Sequence record: NC_105514.1
DNA length: 64,000 nucleotides
Strand: one strand, 5' to 3'
DNA from: Escherichia phage JLBYU40
Position numbers and translations under genes: made by a program. Under the pieces are notes generated by a model that ran no database searches, was not told the DNA's origin, and worked only from the letters and a program-made list of their open reading frames with translations. This document shows, one piece after another, positions 28,379 through 40,730 of this stretch (the stretch's first letter is position 1; every line of letters starts with the position of its first letter).

Positions 28379-28415
28379 AATTGCTCCTATATTTAGCTAT
28401 CTCTAGCTCTTTTAA

Positions 28416-28491
28416 TGGTAGTTAGTAGTGGATTTGAACCACTGTAGTCGCTCCGTATGAAGGAGGTGCATAACCACTCTGCCAACTAACT
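28416..28491 (-). tRNA. tRNA (anticodon CAT; Met, fMet or Ile2)
   Basis: hand-folded: 7-bp acceptor AGTTAGT/ACTAACT, T-arm, encoded CCA, anticodon loop TTCATAC. Confidence 0.55.
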
Positions 28492-28587
28492 GTTATGTTT
28501 TACTAGACTAAGTAAGTATTCTTTATACTCTTTAGACCAATTAGCTTTTTTAAACTTTCCTGGACGCATAGTCTTAATTCCTAAATT

Positions 28588-28664
28588 TGGTACTCCGGGA
28601 GGGATTTAAACCCCCGATCTCTCGGTTATCAGCCGAGTGCTTTAGATCGCTAAGCTACCGAAGC
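28588..28664 (-). tRNA. tRNA-Ile (GAT)
   Basis: acceptor with two G-U pairs, T-arm, CCA, anticodon loop CTGATAA. Confidence 0.55.
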
Positions 28665-28665
28665 A

Positions 28666-28893
28666 TTAACATTTTACAGCAGAACGTTTGCCATTTCTAG
28701 GTGCACCTGGAAGTCGTGCACGTTCTGCCATTCTTCGCTTAATCTTTGAGATATCTTCTAGTGTTTGTTCTTCAGGCTTAATACCTGAAACACTACACCA
28801 CTGATTACCATCCCATGCGGTAATGATCATAACACCGTTACTCATGATCTTTTCTGTGAAAGTAATCCTCATTATAGCAACTCGTCTAAGCAA
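28666..28893 (-). CDS. hypothetical protein
   Basis: 75 aa ORF. Confidence 0.35.
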   Translation of the reverse strand: MLRRVAIMRITFTEKIMSNGVMIITAWDGNQWCSVSGIKPEEQTLEDISKIKRRMAERARLPGAPRNGKRSAVKC

Positions 28894-29165
28894 GAGGTAT
28901 ATTTAAGTTTACCATCTTTATCTACTTTGATTTCGACTTCCGCTCGTGGTACTTGACGAACTACACCATGAATCATCTTATAGTTAATAGACTTAGACGG
29001 TTCATAATCTTTTGTGAAGACTTGCTTAATCGTTACTACCTTGTACCCATCACGCGGTGTTAACACAACAACTTGATCACCTTCTTTGATCTTCCAAGAG
29101 CTAGGAAATTCATAGGTATAGCGTTGACCACCAGTTTGGAACACAACAGAAAGATAACGTTTCAT
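28872..29165 (-). CDS. hypothetical protein
   Basis: 97 aa; downstream of early promoter 29195-29223. Confidence 0.45.
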   Translation of the reverse strand: MKRYLSVVFQTGGQRYTYEFPSSWKIKEGDQVVVLTPRDGYKVVTIKQVFTKDYEPSKSINYKMIHGVVRQVPRAEVEIKVDKDGKLKYTSCLDELL

Positions 29166-29194
29166 TTGGTTTCCCTCTCATTAATTTATATAAA

Positions 29195-29223
29195 TATTAT
29201 AACAAGAAATAAGAGAGAAAGCA
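29195..29223 (-). promoter_or_regulatory. early promoter
   Basis: -35 TTGCTT, 17-bp spacer, -10 TATAAT; leader ATATAAATTAATGAGAGGG. Confidence 0.55.
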
Positions 29224-29232
29224 AATGAATTT

Positions 29233-29427
29233 TTAATAAAGTTTAGTCACTTCATAAACTATACTACGAGATTCTTTATTTCGTTCTATTAAATTAGTAT
29301 ATGCTTTTTCAGCTTCATTTTTAGTATTAAAGTCTATAACGTGGGAGGTATTCGCTCTATTTGATTGACTATACCAGATAACTACTAACAGTTTAAACAT
29401 AATAGTCCTTAAATTGGTGCTGGGCAC
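29233..29427 (-). CDS. hypothetical protein (start uncertain)
   Basis: 64 aa ORF; listed start overlaps a tRNA 3' end, so the internal Met near 29400 is more likely. Confidence 0.3.
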   Translation of the reverse strand: MPSTNLRTIMFKLLVVIWYSQSNRANTSHVIDFNTKNEAEKAYTNLIERNKESRSIVYEVTKLY

Positions 29428-29501
29428 AGGATTCGAACCTGCAGCGGGATTACTCCTCCTGATTACAAATCAGGTGCATTCAACCATTCTGCCAACCCAG
29501 C
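29415..29501 (-). tRNA. type II tRNA, anticodon unresolved (canonical register TGT)
   Basis: perfect acceptor, GGTTCGAATCC T-arm, CCA, ~15-nt variable arm; anticodon stem CCTGA/TCAGG with loop TTTGTAA. Confidence 0.45.
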
Positions 29502-29666
29502 AGAACCCGTTATTTCAACGGGATTTCTTTTTCAATAACAGGAGACTTATCAGTCATAACTGCCATTGCCATTTGTTGTAGAAATTCAAAGGTGAAGGCT
29601 ACACGTTCTTCACCAATCTCTACTTCTACACGTTTCTTTTGTTTGTCGATCTTGACTTTTAGGTTA

Positions 29667-29918
29667 TCAGCCATTAGATAGTACAGTACTGGTAGTTGGC
29701 AATACTACAGATGAAGCAACAGTATTTAAATGCTTTCTCCAGTCTAGGTTAAATTGTTTTCGAAACTCTTCATAAGGTTCTTCTGGATAAAAGCTAAAAC
29801 CTCCTTTCTCATCATTCAGGATAACAGTGCCGTCAGTTTGTTCGTATGCTCGGTATGTTTCTCCAATAACAATAACTCGTTTATCAGTACTTTTATTACG
29901 GAACTCAAAAACGTGCAT
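29667..29918 (-). CDS. hypothetical protein
   Basis: 83 aa ORF. Confidence 0.4.
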   Translation of the reverse strand: MHVFEFRNKSTDKRVIVIGETYRAYEQTDGTVILNDEKGGFSFYPEEPYEEFRKQFNLDWRKHLNTVASSVVLPTTSTVLSNG

Positions 29919-29934
29919 AACGTTTCCTTAAAGT

Positions 29935-30010
29935 TGGAGCGGCTAGAGGGAATCGAACCCTACTCAGCGAGGCTTGGAAGGCCTGCGGCACAACCCGTAT
30001 GCTTAACCGC
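29935..30010 (-). tRNA. tRNA-Gly (TCC)
   Basis: acceptor GCGGTTA/TAGCCGC, T-arm GGTTCGATTCC, CCA, anticodon loop CTTCCAA. Confidence 0.55.
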
Positions 30011-30018
30011 TTATTATT

Positions 30019-30094
30019 TGGCTGGAGAAGGAGGAATCGAACCTACCATTAACGGAGTCAAAGGCCGTTGTGCTAACCGTTACACTACTCTCCA
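30019..30094 (-). tRNA. tRNA-Gln (TTG)
   Basis: U1-A72 acceptor, anticodon loop CTTTGAC, CCA. Confidence 0.55.
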
Positions 30095-30100
30095 ATTATT

Positions 30101-30176
30101 TGGCTGGGATGCCACGGATCGAACGTGGAACCTTCGGAGTCAGAGGCCGACGATCTGCCAATTGATCTACATCCCA
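30101..30176 (-). tRNA. tRNA-Gln (CTG)
   Basis: U1-A72 acceptor, anticodon loop CTCTGAC, CCA; close paralog of the previous tRNA. Confidence 0.55.
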
Positions 30177-30188
30177 ATAATTTTTATT

Positions 30189-30383
30189 CTACGGAAAAAT
30201 TGTTGTTGGCTCAGATTCTTCCAAACGTTTGCCTTCATGATCTACTCGAATAACTCCGCATCCCTCGCAAATCACAACAGCACCGTAGCCTTCTTTAACT
30301 TCAGCTTCTGTAATCAAACCAGAAAGATCACCAGTATCTCTGCCCCACATATCAATGGAGCATTGTTTGCAGAAATCAGCCAT
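30189..30383 (-). CDS. hypothetical Cys-containing small protein
   Basis: 64 aa ORF. Confidence 0.4.
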   Translation of the reverse strand: MADFCKQCSIDMWGRDTGDLSGLITEAEVKEGYGAVVICEGCGVIRVDHEGKRLEESEPTTIFP

Positions 30384-30408
30384 ATTTTATTTCCTATTTA
30401 AGTTAATT

Positions 30409-30485
30409 TGGGGTGGCTAGTGGAATTCGAATCCACATAGGCCTGATTCACAATCAGGATCATTAACCAATTATGATATAGCCAC
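30409..30485 (-). tRNA. tRNA-His (GTG)
   Basis: perfect acceptor, D, anticodon (loop TTGTGAA) and T stems; discriminator C; CCA. Confidence 0.65.
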
Positions 30486-30853
30486 AATTGAAAACTCGCA
30501 GGGTTAGCGAAACCATCCTCAATTAGCATGTTCTAGAATACTAATCAAGTTATCTCCTATTGCACGCAGCTCAAGACGAGTACGAATTTTCAATTGTGGC
30601 GGCTCTCCGAAACTCTTCTACTCTAGCCTTAGCAGCTTACTCCCGAACGCATGTCGGGAAAGTCTTACTAAGAGCATCAAATAGCACCGTTACACTTTGA
30701 GCCATTGATGTATCAAGGAATAGAAGGACTTGAACCTTCATGAGTTAGACCATTTAACTCAACCGCTTTTAAGGTATATTTCTAGGAGTGGATGTTCCTA
30801 GTAAACCTATTGGGCAGTCCCGTCTACCAATTCCGGCATATTCCAAGAATTAT

Positions 30854-31105
30854 TTAAAACTTATAGCCTTCAGGAACCTTATCTTTAACACCGTCATACT
30901 TAGCCTGAATGTAGTAGTCTGGTACATGATCTTTTGGCAGATTTTTATTAGTATCATGAACCTCAGCTCTAGCTTCTTCTTCAGAATCAAAGCCACGATA
31001 CCAGATTTCACCGCCCCACCCACGTTCACTTTCAGTATACTTAACAATATGTTTCATAAGGTTTTCCTTATAAGTTGGAGGAAGGTAATGGAGTCGAACC
31101 ATCAC
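30854..31105 (-). CDS. hypothetical protein
   Basis: 83 aa ORF between tRNA blocks. Confidence 0.45.
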   Translation of the reverse strand: MMVRLHYLPPTYKENLMKHIVKYTESERGWGGEIWYRGFDSEEEARAEVHDTNKNLPKDHVPDYYIQAKYDGVKDKVPEGYKF

Positions 31106-31165
31106 CGTATCACTACAGCGGGCTAGTTTTCAAGACTAGTTGCGTACCACTACGCCCTACCTTCC
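31076..31165 (-). tRNA. tRNA-Ser (TGA), type II
   Basis: acceptor GGAAGGT/ACCTTCC, anticodon loop CTTGAAA, long variable arm, CCA. Confidence 0.55.
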
Positions 31166-31172
31166 ATTTGTT

Positions 31173-31263
31173 TGGCGGAAGAGGAGAGATTTGAACTCTC
31201 AAGCCGTTTTACCAGTCAGCCACTTTCCAAGCGGTTTTCGTCGCCAATTCGATTTGCTCTTCC
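31173..31263 (-). tRNA. tRNA-Ser (GGA), type II
   Basis: perfect acceptor, T-arm GAGAG-TTCAAAT-CTCTC, CCA, long variable arm; 4-bp anticodon stem with one G-U, loop TTGGAAA. Confidence 0.45.
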
Positions 31264-31299
31264 AATAATAAGATGATGCCTCTATCACACCAGGCAGTT

Positions 31300-31372
31300 A
31301 CGCCTCGCTGGGATTCGAACCCATTAAAACAGCTCAACCGAGATAGTAGGTTTAGTTTACTCTGACCATCAA
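31300..31372 (-). other. tRNA-like element (T-arm only)
   Basis: canonical T-arm (rc of CTGGGATTCGAACCC) in a slot between two tRNAs, but no complementary acceptor or anticodon stem found. Confidence 0.2.
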
Positions 31373-31375
31373 ATT

Positions 31376-31452
31376 TGGTGCGTGACAAGGGATTCGAACC
31401 CTCAAAACCCGACTTCTAAGGACGGTATGTATGCCAATTCCATCAATCACGC
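31376..31452 (-). tRNA. tRNA (anticodon TAG, Leu-type; short variable loop)
   Basis: good acceptor, T-arm, CCA; anticodon stem has one U-U mismatch, loop CTTAGAA. Confidence 0.4.
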
Positions 31453-31457
31453 GTATT

Positions 31458-31531
31458 TGGTGGAGAAAGAGGGAGTTGAACCCTCGTCTTCTGCGTGCAA
31501 AGCAGATGTTCTACCATTAAACTATATCCCC
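31458..31531 (-). tRNA. tRNA-Ala (TGC)
   Basis: G3-U70 pair in acceptor, anticodon stem TCTGC/GCAGA, loop TTTGCAC, CCA. Confidence 0.6.
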
Positions 31532-31769
31532 AAATTCTTTAGTTTACTAAGGCTATTAGCTCGGCGTAACTACAGCACCTTCGCTTCGAGCGGAAGTAAC
31601 CGCGTCATCTCGCAAACCCGATACACTATTCAGTTGCCGCTGAATCTAGTGGACTAATCTAGAACCTCTCCCAAATCGTAGGGATCGTGCTTTTTGGCAG
31701 CCAGTCCTAGGTCGAGCTAATACCTTAGTGAACTATGATGAGGATTTCTCCTCATCAATTTATATAAAT

Positions 31770-31798
31770 ATTATAACAAGAAATTAAGCATCAAGCAA
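31770..31798 (-). promoter_or_regulatory. early promoter driving a noncoding leader plus tRNA block
   Basis: -35 TTGCTT, 17-bp spacer, -10 TATAAT; about 200 nt without a plausible ORF before tRNA-Ala. Confidence 0.5.
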
Positions 31799-31816
31799 AT
31801 GAGTTTTTCTTGAAAT

Positions 31817-31895
31817 TGGTAGATCGCCTGGGACTCGAACCCAGAACCTTCCGATTAAAAGTCGGATGCTACTAAACCTATTGAGCTAGCGATCT
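31817..31895 (-). tRNA. tRNA-Lys (TTT)
   Basis: perfect acceptor, anticodon stem TCCGA/TCGGA, loop CTTTTAA, CCA. Confidence 0.6.
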
Positions 31896-32084
31896 ATTAA
31901 TAACTATTGTATACTTCTTTAATAGAGTGAACTTTCAAGTAAGGGTGATTAGTACTAAACTCTATCATTACTTCATCCCAATTTTTACCATAATGAGCAA
32001 GTAAGGATTTTGATGTATTCTTACCTAAACGTTTGTCACTTACTACTAATCGAAATACTTTCATTTCGAAATCCTCTATTAAAG

Positions 32085-32162
32085 TGGAAGCGGGTGCAGG
32101 AATCGAACCTACCTCTTTCTAGCTTATGAGACTAGCGATCTCTACCAGAGATCTAACCCGCA
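32085..32162 (-). tRNA. tRNA (anticodon CAT; Met, fMet or Ile2)
   Basis: unpaired 1-72 (U-U), D-stem GATC/GATC, anticodon loop CTCATAA, CCA. Confidence 0.45.
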
Positions 32163-32168
32163 ATTGTT

Positions 32169-32246
32169 TGGTCTCCGTGGGAGGATTTGAACCCCCGACC
32201 CTATCGCCCCAAACGAAACGCTCTGGCCAAACTGAGCTACACGGAG
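32169..32246 (-). tRNA. tRNA-Pro (TGG)
   Basis: perfect acceptor, D-arm GCTC/GAGC, anticodon loop TTTGGGG (stem with one U-U), CCA. Confidence 0.5.
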
Positions 32247-32619
32247 AATATTATTTCTTTAACCACAGCAAAGATAAGCCCAGCATACTAAAACCGCTAA
32301 CTAATCCGATACATTTTTCTTCTATAGTAAAAGTATCTAGATTAAATGCTGTTATAGCTATTGGCATACACCATAATGCCATAAAAACTTGAGATATCTT
32401 GTGTTTCATTTTGCTTTCCTTCTCTTCACTTTATAAAATATATTATACAGATAATAAAGCAGAATAGCAAATGAATTTTTAATAAATTTACTTATTGTGT
32501 AGGCCACCTGGAGGCTACCAACCCCACGGCTGACAAAGAAGTTTGCGAGACCTCTCTTAAATGCCAGAATAGACCCGCCGGTCTATCGGAACCTACATAA
32601 TAAGTAAACTTTATAGTGT

Positions 32620-32740
32620 CATTCTAGACAGGACTCGAACCTGTTATCACTTGTGCGGACTTACGAGAACCATTCTTTCACTCGAATCGAACGAGCTTCT
32701 GCCCCCGCCAAGCTGGTTTCCCCATCAACCACGCTAGAAT
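32620..32740 (-). other. oversized tRNA-like element (~120 nt)
   Basis: canonical T-arm (rc of ACAGGACTCGAACCTGT) but the only complementary acceptor partner lies ~115 nt away; no CCA. Confidence 0.2.
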
Positions 32741-32862
32741 GTTTGATTGTTTTCAGTGCAAGAGTCCGAGTCTTGGACACGACCGCTTCGCAAGTACATA
32801 GGCGGCTTATCATGAGTCAGCACTTCCGAATTGCTAGCTTCGTGTTCTGCACTGAAATTTTG

Positions 32863-33210
32863 TTAATTTAATAGTAAAGTACGATCTACTTCACCATTAA
32901 TTGTTCGGCATTCTTCTGGGATTGCTGGTGTAGTCTTATATTCCCACCATTCAGAACCATCATATTCACCACGTTCTAACCAAGTTCCATCGGTAAACCA
33001 TACGTTACCATAAAGCAATTGTCCGCCGAAACCAGAATCATATTTAAAGTCTAGATTATCTAGAAAATCTTCAATATCTTTTTCTGTATAACCTACGGGT
33101 AATACCCAAACTTCTTTATCCCCATAATAACCGAATTCTATCTTAATACACTTAACTTCAGAATTAGTATTCTTTAGGGCAAGTAACAATTCTTCTTTAG
33201 CATTAATCAT
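32863..33210 (-). CDS. hypothetical acidic protein
   Basis: 115 aa ORF. Confidence 0.45.
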   Translation of the reverse strand: MINAKEELLLALKNTNSEVKCIKIEFGYYGDKEVWVLPVGYTEKDIEDFLDNLDFKYDSGFGGQLLYGNVWFTDGTWLERGEYDGSEWWEYKTTPAIPEECRTINGEVDRTLLLN

Positions 33211-33236
33211 AGCGTATTTCTCGTGCTAGTTTAGTT

Positions 33237-33313
33237 TGGCGCGACCGATGGGATTCGAACCCACATTCTCTCCCGTGACAGGGGAGTACCATTACCAAGC
33301 CAGCCCCGGTCGC
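33237..33313 (-). tRNA. tRNA-Asp (GTC)
   Basis: perfect acceptor, anticodon stem CTCCC/GGGAG, loop CTGTCAC, CCA. Confidence 0.65.
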
Positions 33314-33322
33314 ATAATTCAT

Positions 33323-33508
33323 TTACTCAGCTTTGAGTTTTTCAATAGCTGCATTAAGTTCCTTAAGAAACTCTTTTCGTACATTAAGACGATTAAGACT
33401 TACTAGTATATCATGTTTAAGTTCTTCGATGTATTTCTTCTCAACTTCAATATTGTTGATAGTGCTATCACGATGAACTTCTAGCTGTGCAATTACGTTC
33501 TTGGACAT
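33323..33508 (-). CDS. hypothetical coiled-coil protein
   Basis: 61 aa ORF. Confidence 0.35.
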   Translation of the reverse strand: MSKNVIAQLEVHRDSTINNIEVEKKYIEELKHDILVSLNRLNVRKEFLKELNAAIEKLKAE

Positions 33509-33610
33509 GCTTGTTTCCTCAGTTATTAATGAAAATGGTATCTGTGGCTGAATTCGATGTCAGCAATGATAGCTGGTTGGCTACCGGTTTACTTAACTCT
33601 ACACAGAATT

Positions 33611-33688
33611 TGGCGGTTCCTGCTGGATTCGAACCAGCAACCCTCAACTTAACAAGATGCCGCTCTAACCAATTAGAGCTAAGGAACC
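33611..33688 (-). tRNA. tRNA-Asn (GTT)
   Basis: perfect acceptor and T-arm, CCA; anticodon loop TTGTTAA but stem has two mismatches. Confidence 0.45.
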
Positions 33689-34183
33689 ATATAAGTCAGA
33701 ACTAGAGTTAATACGTTCTAGATATTTACTAAGATCTCTAGAATTTATACTAAACCACTCATGTTCTTTTAAATCTTTGAAATACTGGTGAATTAGTTTT
33801 TCACCTTTTCGTTTGTCAAACCAAAAAGACCAATGCTCTAACTTATAATCCCTATAAGGGGAATAAGTCTGATATTGAGCTAATCTCTCTTTTGGATTTT
33901 GACTCATACCTATTTTATACTGATTTTTCCATGCAGGATTACTAATACAGTATACAAAACCTTCAGAAATAGGAAGTTTATTTTCCTGCTTAAACTTTAT
34001 AAAGGAAAGTGCAGCAAGTTTTCTCGAATACATAGTATTTGTATTCTTTTTGGTATTACCATTGGTTCCTGAAAGATTTATATATTCTTCCATAAATCTT
34101 TGGATTAGTTCTGCGGTTATATAGAAGGGCTCATTAGTAACAATACCTTTCTTTACCAAACTATCAAAAACTCTTGTATGCAC
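33665..34183 (-). CDS. T5orf172-domain (GIY-YIG-like) protein
   Basis: 172 aa; GFVYCISNP...YKIGMSQNPKERLAQY resembles the T5orf172 motif; 3' end overlaps tRNA-Asn by ~24 nt. Confidence 0.55.
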   Translation of the reverse strand: MHTRVFDSLVKKGIVTNEPFYITAELIQRFMEEYINLSGTNGNTKKNTNTMYSRKLAALSFIKFKQENKLPISEGFVYCISNPAWKNQYKIGMSQNPKERLAQYQTYSPYRDYKLEHWSFWFDKRKGEKLIHQYFKDLKEHEWFSINSRDLSKYLERINSSSDLYGSLALIG

Positions 34184-34204
34184 TACTTCTTTCCTTTAGT
34201 AATT

Positions 34205-34280
34205 TGGACGACCGCATGAGATTTGAACTCACATAAAAAGGATTTGCAATCCTTCGCCTAAGCCATTCAGCCAACGGTCG
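34205..34280 (-). tRNA. tRNA-Cys (GCA)
   Basis: acceptor with terminal G-U, anticodon stem AAGGA/TCCTT, loop TTGCAAA, CCA. Confidence 0.55.
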
Positions 34281-34357
34281 GTTTATCTTGTTCTGTCATG
34301 TTGCTTCTCCAGTTCAATTTATGTAATTATTATACAGAACTTTTGGAAACTAAGCAA

Positions 34358-34627
34358 CTACATTTTTAAGAATTTGATGCCTTTCTTTTTCTTCTTATAT
34401 TTCCACGTTAATGGATTCTGCCGATTGTGAACGCTTGAGATCTTCGTCTCGTCAAAGTTCTTCAATATCATGTAATCACAAGATAATTGTTCTAATGGAA
34501 TGTGATCACCGTCAAAAGCATATACATAAGGCTGTTGACTAACACGATAATGATAGACTTTGTTAATTCTACGTTTTAGCGACTTATCAGCGCAGTAAAT
34601 AAAGAAGTTTTCAGGATGCATCAGCAT
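34358..34627 (-). CDS. hypothetical basic protein
   Basis: 89 aa ORF. Confidence 0.4.
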   Translation of the reverse strand: MLMHPENFFIYCADKSLKRRINKVYHYRVSQQPYVYAFDGDHIPLEQLSCDYMILKNFDETKISSVHNRQNPLTWKYKKKKKGIKFLKM

Positions 34628-34638
34628 CTCCTTCGATT

Positions 34639-34713
34639 TGGTGCACCCTGTTCGTATCGAACGAACCTCTCAAGCTCTTCAGGCAAGCGCTAATCCATCT
34701 CAGCTAAAGGTGC
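34639..34713 (-). tRNA. tRNA, probably Phe (GAA)
   Basis: good acceptor, T-arm, CCA; anticodon loop CTGAAGA but stem has two U-U mismatches. Confidence 0.4.
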
Positions 34714-34719
34714 AAATTT

Positions 34720-34796
34720 TGGCAAACCTACTAGGACTCGAACCTAGACCGTACGGTTTTGGAGACCGACATGCTGTCCAGTAACACTCTAGGAAT
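34720..34796 (-). tRNA. tRNA-Trp (CCA)
   Basis: anticodon arm CGGTCTCCAAAACCG as in bacterial tRNA-Trp; perfect T-arm; acceptor has two U-U mismatches; CCA. Confidence 0.5.
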
Positions 34797-34804
34797 GCAG
34801 AAAT

Positions 34805-34881
34805 TGGCGTCCTGTGCGGGGATCGAACCCGCAAATCCTACCTTGAAAGGGTAGTGACTTTACCAGTTTGTCTAACAGGAC
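34805..34881 (-). tRNA. tRNA-Glu (TTC)
   Basis: perfect acceptor, anticodon stem CTACC/GGTAG, loop CTTTCAA, CCA. Confidence 0.65.
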
Positions 34882-34888
34882 TTAAATT

Positions 34889-34979
34889 TGGTGTTGGATG
34901 ATGGAGTCGAACCACCCGAGACCCTTCCGAGTCGGCAGATTTACAGTCTGCTTCGCTACCTCTACGATACTAATCCAAC
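34889..34979 (-). tRNA. tRNA-Tyr (GTA), type II
   Basis: anticodon arm GCAGACTGTAAATCTGC, long variable arm, CCA. Confidence 0.65.
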
Positions 34980-35107
34980 ATATTTAAAAGTATTCAAATA
35001 CTAGTTTAAACACTTTTAAATATGTTTCCGAATTAGATAACTATTATATCAAGTTTTAAGGCACTGAGCAAGTCAAATTTTAAAGAACTTGCTCAGTGCT
35101 GTATTAG

Positions 35108-35383
35108 TTAGTCGAACTTAGGAGTGACAGTTAAGGAGAACGGAAGTTCGAAAACTTCTTCGCCCTCATTACTAACGGTAACTACACGACCTTTAAGTTC
35201 AGACATTAAAATATCAATATCAGCTTTTGCATCTGGAGCCATGCCAGCTTCAATACATTTAGCTTTAACTTCCGGTAAAAGCTCTACGTTATAGAGATAG
35301 AGCCACTCAATCTCACCTTCCCAGTCTTCCCAGGATTTGCAGATTGCACTTTCAATACCAGTTGCTACAACACGATTTTGCAT
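35108..35383 (-). CDS. hypothetical acidic protein
   Basis: 91 aa ORF with early promoter upstream. Confidence 0.45.
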   Translation of the reverse strand: MQNRVVATGIESAICKSWEDWEGEIEWLYLYNVELLPEVKAKCIEAGMAPDAKADIDILMSELKGRVVTVSNEGEEVFELPFSLTVTPKFD

Positions 35384-35473
35384 TAATTAACTCCTTCATC
35401 AATTTATATAACTATTATACCAGAAATTTAAAGTAAAAGGCAAGTACATTTTTAAAAATTCTGTTTGGAGGAG

Positions 35474-35680
35474 CTAAACTCCAGATTTTTCGGCCAAGTC
35501 TAGACTAATAAGAGTTATAGCCATAATTGCTGCACCGTGTTCTTTTTCTCCGGTGTTTTTAGCAGAGTCTATAATATCCTTAATCTGTTCGTAATAACTT
35601 TTTACTTCTTGTTCAATGCCTGCCTCGGCTATCATGCCTTTAGCCATGAATCGTTGCATGGTAATTTCAGGATTAGCCAT
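35474..35680 (-). CDS. hypothetical protein
   Basis: 68 aa ORF. Confidence 0.4.
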   Translation of the reverse strand: MANPEITMQRFMAKGMIAEAGIEQEVKSYYEQIKDIIDSAKNTGEKEHGAAIMAITLISLDLAEKSGV

Positions 35681-35855
35681 GTTGTTTCTCCAGTTTCATT
35701 TTTAATAGTTTACAGATGAAATCAACGTCTTCATCTGTGCCTAAGTCTCTATCCTCAAGGGTCGCCTTGAAGTTTTTCGTCAATTCCATGAGGATGACTT
35801 CCCTAGAACGACGTGTTGGCGGAGGTGGATGTCTATACATCTTATTTCCTTAATT

Positions 35856-35932
35856 TGGTAGGGGTGGTGGGATTCGAACCCACAAAACCTGAATTTTAAG
35901 TCCAGTACCTATGCCAATTCGATTACACCCCC
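35856..35932 (-). tRNA. tRNA (anticodon TAA, Leu-type; short variable loop)
   Basis: acceptor GGGGGTG/CACCCCT, anticodon stem CTGGA/TTCAG, loop CTTAAAA, CCA. Confidence 0.45.
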
Positions 35933-36148
35933 GTGTAATTTAGTCAATTACTTTTGAAGCTTCAAGGTAGTCGATATAGTGTACGTTTTCTACCGTAATC
36001 ATATAATCTGCCACTTTATCCATAGCTTGGGCTTCAGAGGTAGCTCTGGCTAACCTATATCCTTTTTTATATTCATCAGAGTATTCTCTATCTTGAATAA
36101 ACACAACATAAACTACGTATAATTCCACTTGTAACCCCCTAATTAAGT

Positions 36149-36226
36149 TGGTGGCTCCCCGAGGATTCGAACCTACGTACCTTCCGGTTATGAGCCGGGT
36201 GCTCATACCATATGAGCTTGAGAACC
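36149..36226 (-). tRNA. tRNA (anticodon CAT; Met, fMet or Ile2)
   Basis: acceptor with two G-U pairs, D-arm GCTC/GAGC, anticodon loop CTCATAA, CCA. Confidence 0.5.
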
Positions 36227-36232
36227 AAAATC

Positions 36233-36321
36233 TGGCGGAAGAAGTGGGAATCGAACCCACAAGGCTATATTTCAAACCGACAGATTAGCAATCTGCTGCA
36301 ATACCGTTATGCTATTCTTCC
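36233..36321 (-). tRNA. tRNA-Ser (GCT), type II
   Basis: perfect acceptor, anticodon stem GCAGA/TCTGT, loop TTGCTAA, long variable arm, CCA. Confidence 0.6.
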
Positions 36322-36342
36322 GAATTTATAAGATATATTATA

Positions 36343-36862
36343 TTAGAAATTTAGCTTCATAGCAAGAAAATTTTTCAAGTTTTCGGTAGACATCTCATCT
36401 ACATCTACAGGAGAAACAAAGCCGTTTAATTTTCTAGCAAATTTTTCACCATCGGGATCATTGTCTCCAACAGCTACCAATTTAAAAGGTAGTAATTTCA
36501 GTTGCTTTAATAACGCTTTTCCTGGAGAAGAACCCAACATTGCTAGGGCTGGATAACCAGCGTTATGTAACGCAACTGCCTTAAATACAGATTCAGCAAT
36601 CAATACTACTTTTTCATCTCCATTGAGAGTTTCTAGTCCCCATACACACTGGGTAGTAGAATAAGTAAAGTATTTAGCTTCAAAGGGGCACTTACCATGA
36701 CCTTTTGGAGCAGAAGGATTATAAGTTTGATAGCCCCTCAACATCCCAGAGAAGTCATACAACGGGACTGTTAGCCATCCTTCTGGACTTAACCAGCAAT
36801 GATATTTATCTGTATCAAATCCCCTAGATAAGAGGTGCTGTGTTAGCTCATCAACATTCATA
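36343..36862 (-). CDS. Toprim-domain protein
   Basis: 173 aa from the Met at 36862 beside an early promoter; IAES...VAVGDNDPDGEKFA resembles the Toprim E + DxD signature. Confidence 0.45.
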
Positions 36863-39858: not shown

Positions 39859-39933
39859 TGGCCGAGGTGACAGGATTCGAACCTGCATAAAGGAATTTAG
39901 AAGACTCCTGCCTCTCCCTTAGACTACACCCCG
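39859..39933 (-). tRNA. tRNA-Arg (TCT)
   Basis: acceptor CGGGGTG/CACCTCG, anticodon stem GGAGT/ATTCC, loop CTTCTAA, CCA. Confidence 0.5.
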
Positions 39934-40435
39934 TTTAAGTATTTTTAAGAACTCTCGTAAAAACTCTTAAAAATACAGACGATACCGGGAGAGTCATAGG
40001 TCTCACTCATTAAGTATTTCAAGACAAAATACAGTAACGTCTATTATTTTCCAGTTTAAGTCAGGGTGACTTAGTGGTTATGTCCTGCGGTATATTGAGG
40101 ACTCGGTTAGGCTTGGGGTCATGACTTCCCGCCTTTTGCTGCTACTCAACAGGAGTTATCGCGAATTACCTGTGCTATTGTGCACCATTAGTGACATCTC
40201 TCATGCCAGCATTTCCCACTTTGTGGATAGCTTGAAAAACTACTCCGATATGGAGAAAGAACTTCACTATCCTAGAATACCTTCTAAAGTTCTTCTTTAG
40301 CCTGGACATAGTTAAATCGTAATAAAACTATTCAGCAGACCGGTTGGTTAGTCTGGAACCAACTACCGCGTGGTTTAGGCAGTGCGCAACTAACCTCGGA
40401 AGCTTTTACGTTAAAAGCATCAGTTATCCAGTTCT

Positions 40436-40507
40436 TACCGACCGTAGGATTCGAACCTACATCTTCCACCAGTTACGGCTTGATAATACCAATTATACTA
40501 GGACGGC
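40436..40507 (-). tRNA. tRNA, anticodon unresolved
   Basis: perfect T-arm, acceptor with one U-U mismatch, no encoded CCA; no convincing anticodon stem by eye. Confidence 0.3.
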
Positions 40508-40730
40508 AGTGTTACTACATAAGTGATTTCCACACCCCACTATTTATAAATTAGAGAAGAGTTTAGGGAAGAGGTTTCAGACGCCTCATTTTACACGTTC
40601 TAGCCACTAACCGGGATTGCCGCCCCCTGTGTACTAGTTTTACAACTAACCCACCGACTCTATTCAATGCACTCCGGTTGGGATTCTGCACTCAGCGTAA
40701 TCGGCTCGCTGTTCCCTAATTTATGAATAT

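What the first reader, a model, noticed from the sequence alone, without database searches (positions are those of the whole stretch)
28416..36321. tRNA cluster with several non-canonical members
Seen by hand folding: about 25 tRNAs with good T-arms and encoded CCA, including three CAT tRNAs and paired Gln (TTG/CTG) isoacceptors. Several deviate: a type II tRNA whose only good anticodon stem gives loop TTTGTAA (anticodon TGT, not a normal type II identity); two Leu-anticodon tRNAs (TAG, TAA) with short variable loops; U-U mismatches in acceptor or anticodon stems of the Trp, Phe, Pro and Asn candidates. These may be real phage idiosyncrasies or errors of my manual folds.
Basis: seen in the sequence. 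Interest (0 to 1): 0.5.

Follow-up and report, generated by a model that had tools for sequence, protein, structure and literature searches.

The report
T5-like phage tRNA cluster oddities
This is the known tRNA gene cluster of a T5-like phage, but its threonine tRNA carries an extra arm and its two leucine tRNAs lack one; both shapes are conserved and widespread, I found no description of them, and they may help the phage translate when host defence nucleases cut tRNAs.

Summary
The window comes from a Tequintavirus (T5-like phage), and 28416-36321 is its minus-strand tRNA-rich region. It holds 24 tRNA genes with encoded CCA; tRNA-Arg and a tRNA-like RNA lie further on.

The 87-nt tRNA(UGU) has a 15-nt variable arm. 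Leu(UAG) and Leu(UAA) have 5-nt variable loops. Trp, Phe, Pro and Asn have U-U mismatches.

None is a fold error or pseudogene.

The long-arm tRNA belongs to a covarying tRNA-Thr family. G1-C72, C2-G71, G35 and U36 are invariant, and the discriminator is never G. The family occurs in about 98 T5-like phages, other phages, and the chromosomes of Eremiobacterota and Acetobacteraceae.

Phage Bas33 has this form as its only tRNA-Thr. Published PARIS rescue data imply, indirectly, that it works and escapes the AriB nuclease.

The arm-less Leu tRNAs keep the full E. coli LeuRS identity set and are very common in phages.

Best reading: these are correctly charged tRNAs with remodelled bodies. They supply phage-preferred codons and, by inference, resist tRNA-targeting defences. 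The cluster is known; these architectures appear undescribed.

The parts
28416..28491 (-). tRNA-Met(CAU), elongator
   Evidence: ARAGORN; Rfam 51.5 bits; 100% identical to T5 tRNAM(CAU).
28588..28664 (-). tRNA-Ile(GAU)
   Evidence: 64.7 bits; 99% identical to T5.
29415..29501 (-). Long-arm tRNA-Thr(UGU), 87 nt. Ser-type D arm (3-bp stem, loop GAAUGGUUGAA). 15-nt variable arm made of 1 nt, a 3-bp stem, tetraloop GUAA and 4 nt. Acceptor stem has G1-C72 and C2-G71; discriminator A73; CCA encoded.
   Evidence: (58.7 bits). Family alignment and covariation. A different allele from T5's 75-nt Thr at the same site.
29935..30010 (-). tRNA-Gly(UCC), deviant D arm and anticodon stem
   Evidence: Found only by relaxed ARAGORN. 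Best Rfam match is tRNA-Sec at 29.6 bits, below threshold. 97% identical to T5 tRNAG1.
30019..30176 (-). tRNA-Gln(UUG) and tRNA-Gln(CUG), adjacent; both have C31.U39
   Evidence: Alleles differ from T5 (no T5 tRNA more than 71% identical) and are identical to T5_ev219.
30409..30485 (-). tRNA-His(GUG)
   Evidence: 100% identical to T5.
30487..30847 (-). Stable RNAs RNAIII (30487-30592), RNAI (30597-30703) and tRNA-like RNA1 (30704-30847). RNA1 is a type II Leu(UAA)-like cloverleaf with a 40-nt insertion in the anticodon loop and no CCA.
   Evidence: BLAST to the T5 annotated misc_RNAs, 92-100% identity. ARAGORN intron mode. Fold z-score -2.2.
31076..31165 (-). tRNA-Ser(UGA), type II
   Evidence: 100% identical to T5.
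31173..31263 (-). tRNA-Ser(GGA), deviant (4-bp T stem); allele differs from T5
   Evidence: Found only by relaxed ARAGORN. No BLAST match to T5 tRNAS2. Annotated tRNA-Ser in T5_ev219.
31376..31452 (-). Arm-less tRNA-Leu(UAG), 77 nt. Leu-type D loop GAAUUGGCAUA, variable loop GUUUU, A73, U30.U40 mismatch.
   Evidence: (47.5 bits). T5 has an unrelated 85-nt type II Leu at this position. Family covariation.
31458..31531 (-). tRNA-Ala(UGC), with G3.U70
   Evidence: (72.3 bits).
31551..31722 (-). Stable RNA2H
   Evidence: 97.7% identical to the T5 misc_RNA.
31817..31895 (-). tRNA-Lys(UUU). Allele differs from T5 (71% identity). 3' side of the anticodon arm reads U36AAUCG41.
32085..32246 (-). Initiator tRNA-fMet(CAU) 32085-32162 (U1.U72, A11-U24) and tRNA-Pro(UGG) 32169-32246 (U28.U42)
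32496..32741 (-). Stable RNAIV (32496-32598) and tRNA-like RNA2 (32617-32741)
   Evidence: 96-97% identical to the T5 misc_RNAs.
33237..33313 (-). tRNA-Asp(GUC)
33536..33688 (-). tRNA-like RNA3 (33536-33608) and tRNA-Asn(GUU) (33611-33688). Asn has U30.U40 and G27.A43, and reads U36AAGUU41.
   Evidence: Asn is 100% identical to the T5 tRNA-Asn that helps neutralise PARIS (PMC12409363).
34205..34280 (-). tRNA-Cys(GCA)
34639..34979 (-). tRNA-Phe(GAA), tRNA-Trp(CCA), tRNA-Glu(UUC) and tRNA-Tyr(GUA) in tandem. Phe and Trp carry the U.U mismatches. The Trp and Tyr alleles differ from T5.
35856..35932 (-). Arm-less tRNA-Leu(UAA), 77 nt. Same D loop and variable loop as Leu(UAG); A73. T5 has no counterpart.
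   Evidence: (57.4 bits).
36149..36321 (-). tRNA-Ile2(CAU) 36149-36226 and tRNA-Ser(GCU) 36233-36321
   Evidence: 97% and 100% identical to T5 tRNAI2 and tRNAS3.
39859..39933 (-). tRNA-Arg(UCU), outlying member of the cluster
39934..40563 (-). Stable RNAX region, including a tRNA-like element at 40435-40508 with no CCA
   Evidence: (35.5 bits).

Best explanation
The region is the tRNA-rich region of a T5-like phage (Tequintavirus). Its non-canonical members are functional tRNAs whose amino-acid identity matches their anticodon but whose body plan has been remodelled.

(1) 29415-29501 is a tRNA-Thr(UGU) built on a class-II-like scaffold: a Ser-type D arm plus a short variable-arm hairpin. It keeps the acceptor-stem and anticodon elements that ThrRS reads, and it lacks the elements that define Ser, Leu or Tyr acceptors. 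It should therefore be charged with Thr and read ACA/ACG.

(2) The two 77-nt Leu tRNAs keep everything E. coli LeuRS is known to need (A73, A15-U48, G18G19, A20a, D/T-loop contacts). They have lost only the long arm, which LeuRS does not use. They should read CUA/CUG and UUA/UUG.

(3) The mismatched anticodon stems (Asn, Phe, Pro, Trp and others) are conserved features of working T5-type tRNAs.

Shown here: structure, conservation, covariation, identity elements, and allele replacement relative to T5.

Inferred: actual charging.

Inferred, at roughly 40% on its own: that the remodelled bodies exist because they make the phage tRNAs poor substrates for host tRNA-targeting defence nucleases. Candidates are PARIS AriB, which cuts the anticodon stem and contacts the D loop, and PtuAB/Septu, which cut the variable arm. 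The same tRNAs also supply codons the phage uses far more than its host.
For: Provenance.
- 96% identity to Salmonella phage S130 and Escherichia phage T5_ev219; 589 phage records match.
- 15 tRNAs and one tRNA-like element, plus all eight T5 stable RNAs, are 91-100% identical to T5.

Long-arm Thr.
- ARAGORN and Rfam agree on the fold.
- 46 family members were recovered: 18 viral loci and 28 bacterial-genome loci.
- 14 of 19 helix pairs show compensatory changes.
- G1-C72, C2-G71, G35 and U36 are invariant. The discriminator is A or U, never G.
- The variable-arm hairpin covaries: GGA/UCC, CC/GG, GGC/GCC, UAG/CUA, CCCA/UGGG and others, mostly with GNRA-like loops.
- The tertiary 15-48 pair covaries without exception: 7 A15-U48 and 17 G15-C48.
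- Chromosomal copies sit among ordinary cellular genes in many Eremiobacterota and Acetobacteraceae species.
- Identity rules: ThrRS reads acceptor pairs and the anticodon but not N73. Bacterial tRNA-Ser has conserved G2-C71, with G73 and the variable arm as determinants (PMC9976931).
- Bas33 (HildyBeyeler) has this 87-nt gene as the only tRNA-Thr in its tRNA region. It is rescued from PARIS by T5 tRNA-Lys alone, whereas T7 needs Lys plus Thr (PMC12409363).

Arm-less Leu.
- 117 of 120 IMG/VR pattern hits are 69-84-nt tRNA-Leu(UAA/UAG)-type tRNAs, nearly all 73-78 nt. In the analysed set, 116 of 117 have A73 and 110 of 117 have U48.
- 18 of 20 pairs show compensatory changes. The D-loop core (G13, A14, A15, U17, G18, G19 and two downstream A's) is invariant.
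- In the same contigs Ser (74 of 76) and Tyr (27 of 27) keep the arm.
- E. coli LeuRS needs A73, A15-U48, G18G19 and A20a, not the arm (PMC9976931).

Defence context.
- AriB cuts E. coli Lys(UUU), Thr(UGU) and Asn(GUU) between positions 40 and 41 and contacts D-loop U16-U17. T5 variants rescue.
- PtuAB and Septu cut the variable arm of tRNA-Tyr. T5 tRNA-Tyr is reported resistant because of its distinctive variable loop.
- For both Thr and Asn, T5-like phages carry either a class-I allele with a mutated, mismatched anticodon stem or a long-arm allele with a host-like anticodon arm.

Codon supply. Of Leu codons in window ORFs, CUA is 21% and UUA 25%. Of Thr codons, ACA is 24%.
Against: - No aminoacylation, expression or cleavage data exist for this exact gene. 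Charging is inferred from identity rules established for E. coli.
- The long-arm Thr keeps the AriB site sequence U36AAUCA41, so resistance would have to come from the D loop and variable arm. This is untested. The Bas33 inference is indirect.
- The window allele has A73 and A15-U48, two LeuRS elements. Weak leucylation is therefore not excluded, although G18G19 sit at the Ser-type register in the D loop.
- Its D arm, including C11-G24, is Ser-like.
- I found no reported nuclease that targets the variable arm of tRNA-Leu, so the defence rationale for the arm-less Leu is a guess.
- The same long-arm Thr is a normal chromosomal tRNA in two bacterial lineages, so the architecture need not be a phage-specific adaptation.
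- The allele differences from T5 could reflect homing-endonuclease-driven exchange rather than selection.
Confidence: 0.72

Rival explanations
1. The remodelled tRNAs are functional and correctly charged, but their odd architecture has no defence-related role. They would be neutral variants that aaRS recognition tolerates. They spread among phages by horizontal exchange and by cassette replacement linked to homing endonucleases, and are kept only because they supply codons that are rare in the host.
For: - T5 carries three HNH endonuclease genes (hegA, hegC, hegD) inside its tRNA region. The window lacks all three.
- Nine isoacceptors have no T5 tRNA more than 64-73% identical, while their neighbours are 96-100% identical.
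- At the Thr site the upstream flank is identical and only the tRNA body is swapped.
- The long-arm Thr is an ordinary chromosomal tRNA in Eremiobacterota and Acetobacteraceae.
- LeuRS is indifferent to the arm.
- Phage codon usage favours CUA, UUA and ACA.
Against: - Thr and Asn each show the same pair of alternatives: a mutated anticodon stem, or a long arm with a host-like stem. Both are AriB targets.
- In contigs chosen for an unrelated feature, long-arm variants are enriched among ANN decoders: 14 of 299 against 3 of 523, Fisher p = 1.2e-4.
- The variable arm is a documented nuclease target in tRNA-Tyr, and T5 tRNA-Tyr escapes through its variable loop.
Confidence: 0.25
2. The 87-nt tRNA(UGU) is a recoding tRNA. 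It would be a Ser- or Leu-type class II tRNA whose anticodon drifted (UGA to UGU is one change). SerRS or LeuRS would charge it, inserting Ser or Leu at ACA codons, as nematode nev-tRNAs and bacterial allo-tRNAs do.
For: - SerRS and LeuRS ignore the anticodon.
- The D arm is Ser-like, including C11-G24 and the register of G18G19.
- The window allele has A73 and A15-U48.
- V-arm tRNAs with other anticodons are known elsewhere (PMC3333845 and PMC5389517, listed).
Against: - C2-G71 is invariant in all 46 members, whereas G2-C71 is conserved in bacterial tRNA-Ser.
- The discriminator is never G, and it is U in many members, which rules out both Ser and Leu for the family.
- The variable arm is only a 2-4-bp stem, shorter than Ser arms.
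- It is the tRNA with anticodon UGU found at these chromosomal loci in many bacterial species.
- Bas33 relies on it as its only Thr tRNA under PARIS attack.
Confidence: 0.05
3. The deviant members are decaying pseudogenes, or artefacts of tRNA finders in an AT-rich phage genome.
For: - Several members score low with Rfam: Trp 36.3, Tyr 32.6, Ser(UGA) 33.1 bits.
- Gly and Ser(GGA) are missed at default thresholds.
- T5 annotation notes that many T5 tRNAs do not yield amber suppressors when the anticodon is changed.
- The region does contain tRNA-like RNAs that cannot decode: RNA1, RNA2, RNA3.
Against: - All 24 have encoded CCA and intact cloverleaves.
- The odd ones are near-identical across many phage records: 162 (Leu UAG), 327 (Leu UAA) and 98 (Thr) at 90% identity or more.
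- Distant homologues keep the pairs through compensatory changes.
- T5 Lys, Thr, Asn and Tyr tRNAs are experimentally active.
Confidence: 0.03

Closest known systems
The bacteriophage T5 tRNA gene cluster, called the 'tRNA-rich region' (TRR) of T5-like phages (NC_005859 annotation; Azam et al. 2024, PMC11555353)
   Same: Same genomic region, strand and gene order. 15 tRNAs, one tRNA-like element and all eight annotated stable RNAs are 91-100% identical. The TRR is already documented as an anti-defence locus.
   Different: Nine isoacceptors are different alleles: Thr, Gln x2, Leu(UAG), Ala, Lys, Pro, Trp and Tyr. T5 has a class-I Thr and a type II Leu(UAG). It also has Val and three HNH endonuclease genes that the window lacks. 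The window has Leu(UAA), which T5 lacks.
[quoted passage not shown] 2024, PMC11464382; PMC12409363)
   Same: Same isoacceptors in the same cluster. The window's Asn is 100% identical to the T5 variant. The phage supplies a replacement for a host tRNA that the nuclease destroys.
   Different: The T5 variants escape through substitutions at or near the 40/41 cleavage site. The window's Thr keeps the host-like U36AAUCA41 and instead has a different D loop and an added variable arm. Its resistance is only inferred, from the Bas33 rescue.
T5 tRNA-Tyr, reported resistant to retron-Eco7 PtuAB because of its distinctive variable loop (PMC13096335; PMC11555353)
   Same: Precedent that variable-arm remodelling of a phage tRNA defeats a defence nuclease.
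   Different: That case concerns a tRNA that normally has the arm. Here an arm is gained (Thr) or lost (Leu) relative to the canonical class.
V-arm tRNAs with non-Leu/Ser anticodons: nematode nev-tRNAs (PMC3333845) and bacterial allo-tRNAs (PMC5389517)
   Same: A long variable arm combined with an anticodon outside the Leu/Ser/Tyr set.
   Different: Those keep a Leu or Ser identity and mistranslate. Allo-tRNAs also have 8/4 or 9/3 acceptor/T stems. The tRNA here has a normal 7/5 arrangement and Thr identity elements, with no G73 and no G2-C71.
E. coli tRNA-Leu variants lacking the long arm (in vitro work reviewed in PMC9976931); class-I tRNA-Leu of animal mitochondria (my own knowledge)
   Same: Leucine identity carried by A73 and D/T-loop tertiary elements without a long variable arm.
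   Different: Those are laboratory constructs or organellar tRNAs. Here arm-less tRNA-Leu is a natural, abundant form in phages of bacteria.

Membership tests
T5-like (Tequintavirus) tRNA-rich region | Nucleotide identity and synteny with the T5 tRNA region | tested here: met
   96% identity over 8 kb to T5-like phages. Gene order matches NC_005859 and T5_ev219.
T5-like (Tequintavirus) tRNA-rich region | Presence of the T5 stable RNAs interspersed with the tRNAs | tested here: met
   RNAIII, RNAI, RNA1, RNA2H, RNAIV, RNA2, RNA3 and RNAX all map at 91-100% identity.
tRNA-Thr (E. coli ThrRS identity set) | G1-C72 and C2-G71 in the acceptor stem | tested here: met
   Present in the window tRNA and invariant in the family. 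The specific pairs are from my own knowledge of Hasegawa et al. 1992. The general rule is in PMC9976931.
tRNA-Thr (E. coli ThrRS identity set) | Anticodon G35 and U36 | tested here: met
   Loop UUUGUAA. G35 and U36 are invariant across UGU and CGU members.
tRNA-Thr (E. coli ThrRS identity set) | Actual threonylation by ThrRS | not testable with these tools
   Indirect support only. Bas33, whose only Thr tRNA is this form, needs only tRNA-Lys to escape PARIS.
Canonical class I tRNA architecture (expected for Thr) | 4-5-nt variable loop, 4-bp D stem | tested here: not met
   15-nt variable arm, 3-bp D stem and 11-nt D loop.
Bacterial tRNA-Ser | G2-C71, G73 discriminator, long variable-arm helix | tested here: not met
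   C2-G71 is invariant. The discriminator is A or U. The arm stem is only 2-4 bp in nearly all members. Criteria from PMC9976931. The D arm, including C11-G24, is Ser-like.
Bacterial tRNA-Leu (E. coli LeuRS identity), applied to the 87-nt tRNA | A73, A15-U48, G18G19 at the Leu register, A20a | tested here: not met
   The window allele has A73 and A15-U48. However, G18G19 sit one position earlier (Ser register), and many family members have U73 and G15-C48.
Bacterial tRNA-Leu (E. coli LeuRS identity), applied to the two 77-nt tRNAs | A73, A15-U48, G18G19 and A20a in an 11-nt D loop | tested here: met
   D loop GAAUUGGCAUA, variable loop ending in U, and A73 in both. Conserved in the family. Criteria from PMC9976931.
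Canonical class II architecture (expected for bacterial Leu) | Variable arm longer than 10 nt | tested here: not met
   5-nt variable loop GUUUU in both Leu tRNAs.
allo-tRNA | 8/4 or 9/3 acceptor/T-stem configuration | tested here: not met
   7-bp acceptor stem and 5-bp T stem.
PARIS (AriB)-resistant phage tRNA | Not cleaved by activated AriB | not testable with these tools
   The cleavage-site sequence UAAUCA is retained. The D loop and variable region differ from the E. coli substrate. Only the Bas33 rescue data bear on it.

The most novel reading that the evidence does not exclude
Variable-arm remodelling is a general, unrecognised way for phages to hide their tRNAs from defence nucleases while keeping synthetase identity. 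On this reading, phages add a small GNRA-capped arm and a class-II D loop to ANN-decoding tRNAs (Thr, Asn, Lys, possibly Ile and Met), which are the targets of anticodon-arm nucleases such as AriB. They delete the arm from tRNA-Leu, the one class II tRNA whose synthetase ignores it.

As a corollary that is already largely shown here, the textbook rule that bacterial class II tRNAs are only Leu, Ser, Tyr and Sec is wrong. A class-II-like tRNA-Thr(UGU) is a native chromosomal tRNA in Eremiobacterota and Acetobacteraceae.
Probability: 0.35. Interest if true: 0.75.

Novelty: new variant of a known kind. Interest (0 to 1): 0.55.

Why it matters
The cluster itself is ordinary for a T5-like phage, and its anti-defence role is published. 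What is not in the literature I could search is that two of its tRNA types break the class I / class II rule in opposite directions, and that both exceptions are large, conserved families.

The long-arm tRNA-Thr occurs in about 98 T5-like records, in T4-like and jumbo phages, and in two bacterial lineages. A related long-arm tRNA-Asn matches 588 phage records.

This gives tRNA biologists natural test cases for how ThrRS, AsnRS and LeuRS tolerate the arm. It gives phage-defence researchers a concrete, cheap experiment: is the arm what makes these tRNAs AriB-resistant? It also warns annotators that tRNA length and class cannot be assumed from isotype in phages.

Tried and rejected
- E. coli origin. 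I looked for an E. coli counterpart of the 87-nt tRNA by BLAST against 5,426 E. coli genomes and found none. It is not host-derived.
- Conserved tuf context. I looked for EF-Tu next to the bacterial long-arm Thr genes, as in the thrU-tyrU-glyT-thrT-tufB context. No EF-Tu motif lay within the 8-kb loci. I therefore claim only a chromosomal context with cellular neighbours and nearby Tyr/Gly tRNAs.
- Chance pattern matches. 96 of the 142 loci scanned for the long-arm Thr pattern had no tRNA called at the match. I treated these as mostly chance hits.
- tRNA-Leu-directed nuclease. The OLD paper has no mention of Leu or of the variable arm. The retron-Eco7 and Eco4 work reports only tRNA-Tyr.
- Literature. 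Full-text searches for a long-arm tRNA-Thr found nothing relevant. Reviews list only Ser, Leu, Tyr and Sec as class II. The 2020 review of non-canonical tRNAs does not mention phages.
- Arm-less Leu in bacteria. The bacterial loci I held contained no Leu tRNA, so I could not test whether bacteria have arm-less Leu.
- RNA1 as an intron-containing Leu gene. Rejected, because T5 annotates a stable 144-nt RNA, the insertion lies between positions 32 and 33, and there is no CCA.

Full report
**What the region is**

Megablast of 28400-36400 finds 589 phage records. The best matches are 96% identical over 91-96% of the query: Salmonella phages S130 and S131, and Escherichia phage T5_ev219, all Tequintavirus.

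The richly annotated T5 reference (NC_005859) has the same minus-strand array of tRNA genes, small ORFs, promoters and 'stable RNAs'. All eight T5 stable RNAs map onto the window at 91-100% identity. The finding therefore sits in the well-known T5 tRNA cluster. This cluster was recently named the tRNA-rich region and shown to be an anti-defence locus (PMC11555353).

**Check of the observation**

- ARAGORN at default settings gives 22 tRNAs in the window, 21 of them inside 28416-36321.
- Rfam gives 24 tRNA hits at or above the gathering score. It adds the third CAU tRNA and a tRNA-like element at 40436-40507.
- Relaxed ARAGORN adds Gly(UCC) and Ser(GGA).
- By identity to T5 annotation, the three CAU tRNAs are elongator Met, initiator fMet and Ile2.
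- All 24 tRNAs in the interval have CCA encoded.

**The long-arm tRNA(UGU), 29415-29501**

The fold is unambiguous:
- a 7-bp acceptor stem, GCUGGGU/GCCCAGC;
- a 3-bp D stem with the 11-nt loop GAAUGGUUGAA, the layout of bacterial tRNA-Ser;
- a perfect anticodon stem, CCUGA/UCAGG, with loop UUUGUAA;
- a 15-nt variable region forming a 3-bp hairpin with a GUAA loop;
- a normal T arm, A73 and CCA.

Rfam scores it 58.7 bits.

It is an alternative allele, not an insertion mutant of the T5 gene. At the same site T5 and T5_ev219 carry an unrelated 75-nt class-I tRNA-Thr(UGU). The upstream flank is identical and the tRNA body is swapped.

In the phage collection, about 98 records carry the long-arm allele at 90% identity or more. 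About 310 carry the T5 class-I allele. T4-like Aeromonas phages PX29 and Ah1 have an 85-nt homologue at 78% identity.

**A family, not an oddity**

I scanned for the Ser-type D arm followed by a UGU anticodon loop. This recovered long-arm tRNA-Thr genes of 82-90 nt in 18 IMG/VR loci and 28 bacterial-genome loci.

- In a 17-sequence alignment, 14 of 19 helix pairs show compensatory double changes.
- The variable-arm stem covaries. It is mostly capped by GNRA-like tetraloops (GAAA, GUAA, GAGA, GCAA), with one unpaired base before it and three or four after.
- The tertiary Levitt pair covaries without exception. Seven sequences have A15-U48 and 17 have G15-C48. This places the last variable-region base at position 48 of a normal L-shape.

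The bacterial copies come from many species of Eremiobacterota and of Acetobacteraceae and related Alphaproteobacteria. The collection holds one genome per species. The copies lie on contigs of up to megabase size, next to ordinary genes: FAA hydrolase, cytochrome b561, SpoU methylase and an ECF sigma factor. Tyr and Gly tRNAs are often nearby. The Acetobacteraceae version is closely similar to the window's. In those loci the Thr(GGU) isoacceptor is an ordinary 75-nt tRNA.

**Which amino acid?**

- G1-C72, C2-G71, G35 and U36 are invariant across the family.
- ThrRS identity rests on acceptor-stem pairs and the anticodon, and the discriminator matters little (PMC9976931). That the E. coli set is exactly these four elements is from my own knowledge (Hasegawa et al. 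1992).
- Bacterial tRNA-Ser has conserved G1-C72 and G2-C71, with G73 and a long arm as determinants. Here position 2-71 is always C-G, the discriminator is A or U and never G, and the arm stem is only 2-4 bp in nearly all members.
- LeuRS needs A73, A15-U48, and G18G19 and A20a in the right register. Many family members have U73 and G15-C48, and G18G19 sit in the Ser register.

The family is therefore best read as tRNA-Thr.

One published experiment bears on this. HildyBeyeler is Bas33, and this 87-nt gene is the only tRNA-Thr in its tRNA region. Bas33 is blocked by PARIS and is rescued by T5 tRNA-Lys(UUU) alone. T7, which has no tRNAs, needs Lys plus Thr, because AriB also destroys host tRNA-Thr(UGU) (PMC12409363). 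The simplest reading is that the long-arm tRNA-Thr decodes ACA in vivo and survives AriB. In the passages I read, that paper does not comment on its architecture.

**The arm-less Leu tRNAs, 31376-31452 and 35856-35932**

Both are 77 nt. Both have a 3-bp D stem, the D loop GAAUUGGCAUA (E. coli tRNA-Leu has GAAUUGGUAGA, from my own knowledge), the variable loop GUUUU, A73 and CCA.

T5 has an unrelated 85-nt type II tRNA-Leu(UAG) at the first position and nothing at the second. Among T5-like records, the arm-less Leu(UAG) allele (about 162 records) outnumbers the T5 type II allele (about 54). The arm-less Leu(UAA) is in about 327 records. Related arm-less forms of about 73-77 nt occur in Felixounavirus, SSE121-like, Vibrio and Pseudomonas phages.

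Of the 120 hits, 117 were ARAGORN-called tRNA-Leu(UAA/UAG)-type tRNAs, nearly all 73-78 nt.
- 116 of the 117 analysed have A73, and 110 have U48.
- A gap-free alignment of 25 diverse members shows compensatory changes in 18 of 20 pairs.
- The D-loop core (G13, A14, A15, U17, G18, G19 and two downstream A's), U48 and A73 are invariant.
- In the same contigs, Ser (74 long, 2 short) and Tyr (27 long, 0 short) keep their arms.

This is what the identity rules predict. E. coli LeuRS uses A73, A15-U48, G18G19, A20a and D/T-loop contacts, and does not use the arm. Serine identity rests primarily on the arm. These are therefore plausible, fully equipped tRNA-Leu species.

**The mismatches**

Eight of the 22 window tRNAs have at least one non-Watson-Crick, non-GU pair in the anticodon stem. 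Five mismatches lie at internal positions 28-30. This compares with 60 internal mismatches in 1301 tRNAs from the viral loci and 1 in 74 from the bacterial loci.

- Asn and Phe are 100% and 97% identical to the T5 genes.
- T5 tRNA-Asn is one of the three tRNAs that neutralise PARIS. Its substitutions lie at the AriB cleavage site. In the window it reads U36AAGUU41, where E. coli has UAAUCC, and this produces the U30.U40 mismatch.
- T5 tRNA-Phe has been studied as a PheRS substrate.

The mismatches are conserved properties of working tRNAs.

**Mechanism**

Shown: the window ORFs use CUA (21% of Leu codons), UUA (25%), ACA (24% of Thr), AGA and GGA. This is far more than E. coli does (host figures are from my own knowledge). 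The cluster's U34 anticodons match these codons.

Also established by others:
- AriB cuts host Lys(UUU), Thr(UGU) and Asn(GUU) between positions 40 and 41 and makes base-specific contacts with D-loop U16-U17.
- Retron-Eco7 PtuAB and Septu cut the variable arm of tRNA-Tyr.
- T5 tRNA-Tyr is reported resistant because of its distinctive variable loop.

Inferred: T5-like phages seem to have two solutions for each of Thr and Asn. One is a class-I body with a mutated, mismatched anticodon stem: the T5 Thr reads UAAGCA with U28.U42, and the T5 Asn is described above. The other is a host-like anticodon arm on a class-II-type body: the window Thr reads UAAUCA, and the Bas33 86-nt Asn reads UAAUCC. The second would change both non-cleavage-site regions that matter for AriB.

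For Leu I have no identified nuclease. Arm loss as evasion is only a hypothesis there.

**Rivals**

- Neutral mosaicism. T5's tRNA region holds three HNH endonuclease genes that the window lacks. Nine isoacceptors are swapped while their neighbours are near-identical. The long-arm Thr is also a normal cellular tRNA. I give this reading (functional tRNAs, no defence meaning) about 0.25.
- Recoding by Ser or Leu mischarging: about 0.05, for the identity reasons above.
- Pseudogenes or artefacts: about 0.03.

**Comparison with what is known, and novelty**

The cluster, its stable RNAs and the anti-defence role of T5 Lys, Thr, Asn and Tyr tRNAs are known. GenBank records already label these genes tRNA-Thr and tRNA-Leu.

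I found no paper that notes a class-II-like tRNA-Thr or natural arm-less tRNA-Leu in phages or bacteria. Reviews state that class II comprises Ser, Leu, bacterial Tyr and Sec. The search covers only open-access text, so an older description cannot be excluded.

I classify this as a new variant of a known kind, of moderate interest. It is surprising to tRNA specialists and directly testable, but it lies inside a well-studied locus, and its mechanism is only partly supported.

Noticed in passing
window 30704-30847 (-): T5 'RNA1' is a type II tRNA-Leu(UAA)-like cloverleaf: Leu-type D arm, a 6-bp variable-arm hairpin and a good T arm. A 40-nt insertion between positions 32 and 33 extends the anticodon arm. 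It has U1.U72 and no CCA. It is 94-95% identical to T5, and the fold z-score is -2.2. It could be a relic or a decoy form of the type II Leu that the arm-less genes replace. Its function is annotated as unknown.
   Followed up: partly
L267:9551-9636 (Bas33); L021:7270-7352 (Shigella phage SSP1); L019:3228-3309 (Aeromonas phage PX29): T5-like and T4-like phages also carry long-arm tRNA-Asn(GUU) of 82-86 nt. These have the same design: a class-II-type D arm and a short variable-arm hairpin, GNRA-capped in the Bas33 and SSP1 copies. BLAST with the Bas33 gene matches 588 phage records, 587 of them over at least 80% of its length. These include Klebsiella, Serratia and Enterobacter T4-like phages. 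The window itself has the T5-type 78-nt Asn.
   Followed up: partly
IMG/VR loci L012, L020, L022, L033, L184, L189, L191, L192, L214, L216, L223: Other phage tRNAs of 81 nt or more have class-I isotypes: Lys(CUU/UUU), Trp, Met, Ile(GAU), Ile(UAU) and Cys. In contigs chosen only for having arm-less Leu, long forms are enriched among ANN decoders (Ile, Asn, Lys, Met, Thr): 14 of 299 against 3 of 523, Fisher p = 1.2e-4. Several share a contig, so the counts are not independent.
   Followed up: partly
window 29415-36321 compared with L003 (T5) and L001 (T5_ev219): Allele replacement happens at the scale of single tRNAs. For Thr, Gln(UUG), Gln(CUG), Leu(UAG), Ala, Lys, Pro, Trp and Tyr, no T5 tRNA is more than 64-73% identical. 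Interleaved neighbours are 96-100% identical. T5_ev219 shares the window's alleles except for Thr and Ala. The T5 HNH endonuclease genes hegA, hegC and hegD, and tRNA-Val, are absent from the window.
   Followed up: partly
window 31817-31895 (-): The window's tRNA-Lys(UUU) allele reads U36AAUCG41. It has an enlarged D loop with a mismatched D stem. The PARIS-resistant T5 allele instead reads UAAACC. Whether this allele resists AriB or PrrC is unknown.
   Followed up: no
window 32085-32162 (-): The initiator tRNA has U1.U72 and A11-U24. It lacks the three consecutive G-C pairs at the bottom of the anticodon stem that bacterial initiators normally have; only G30-C40 is present. It is 100% identical to the T5 gene annotated as tRNA-fMet.
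   Followed up: no
window 33665-34183 (-): A 172-aa ORF with a T5orf172/MUG113 (GIY-YIG-like) domain, E 5e-16. Its 3' end overlaps the first 24 nt of tRNA-Asn. It occupies the same position as T5.069 in T5.
   Followed up: partly
window about 31296-31340 (-): Between Leu(UAG) and Ser(GGA) there is an isolated T-arm-like stretch (GGGTTCGAATCCC) with no complete cloverleaf. It may be a remnant of a displaced tRNA gene.
   Followed up: no
window 40435-40508 (-), inside RNAX (39934-40563): A tRNA-like element: Rfam 35.5 bits, and relaxed ARAGORN calls anticodon 'ACT'. It has an extended acceptor stem containing a U.U mismatch and no CCA. It is 96% identical to T5 and embedded in the annotated stable RNAX.
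   Followed up: no
L036, L047, L055, L070, L097, L100, L107 and others (Eremiobacterota); L037, L039, L062, L074, L096, L105 (Acetobacteraceae): In these bacteria the chromosomal tRNA-Thr(UGU) is the long-arm form (82-89 nt). The neighbouring Thr(GGU) is a normal 75-nt tRNA, so the arm is isoacceptor-specific. I could not check whether a class-I Thr(UGU) also exists elsewhere in those genomes.
   Followed up: partly
L003:7178-7248 (T5 tRNA-Trp): ARAGORN does not call the annotated 71-nt T5 tRNA-Trp even at a relaxed threshold. The window's different 77-nt Trp allele is called, despite three U.U mismatches.
   Followed up: no
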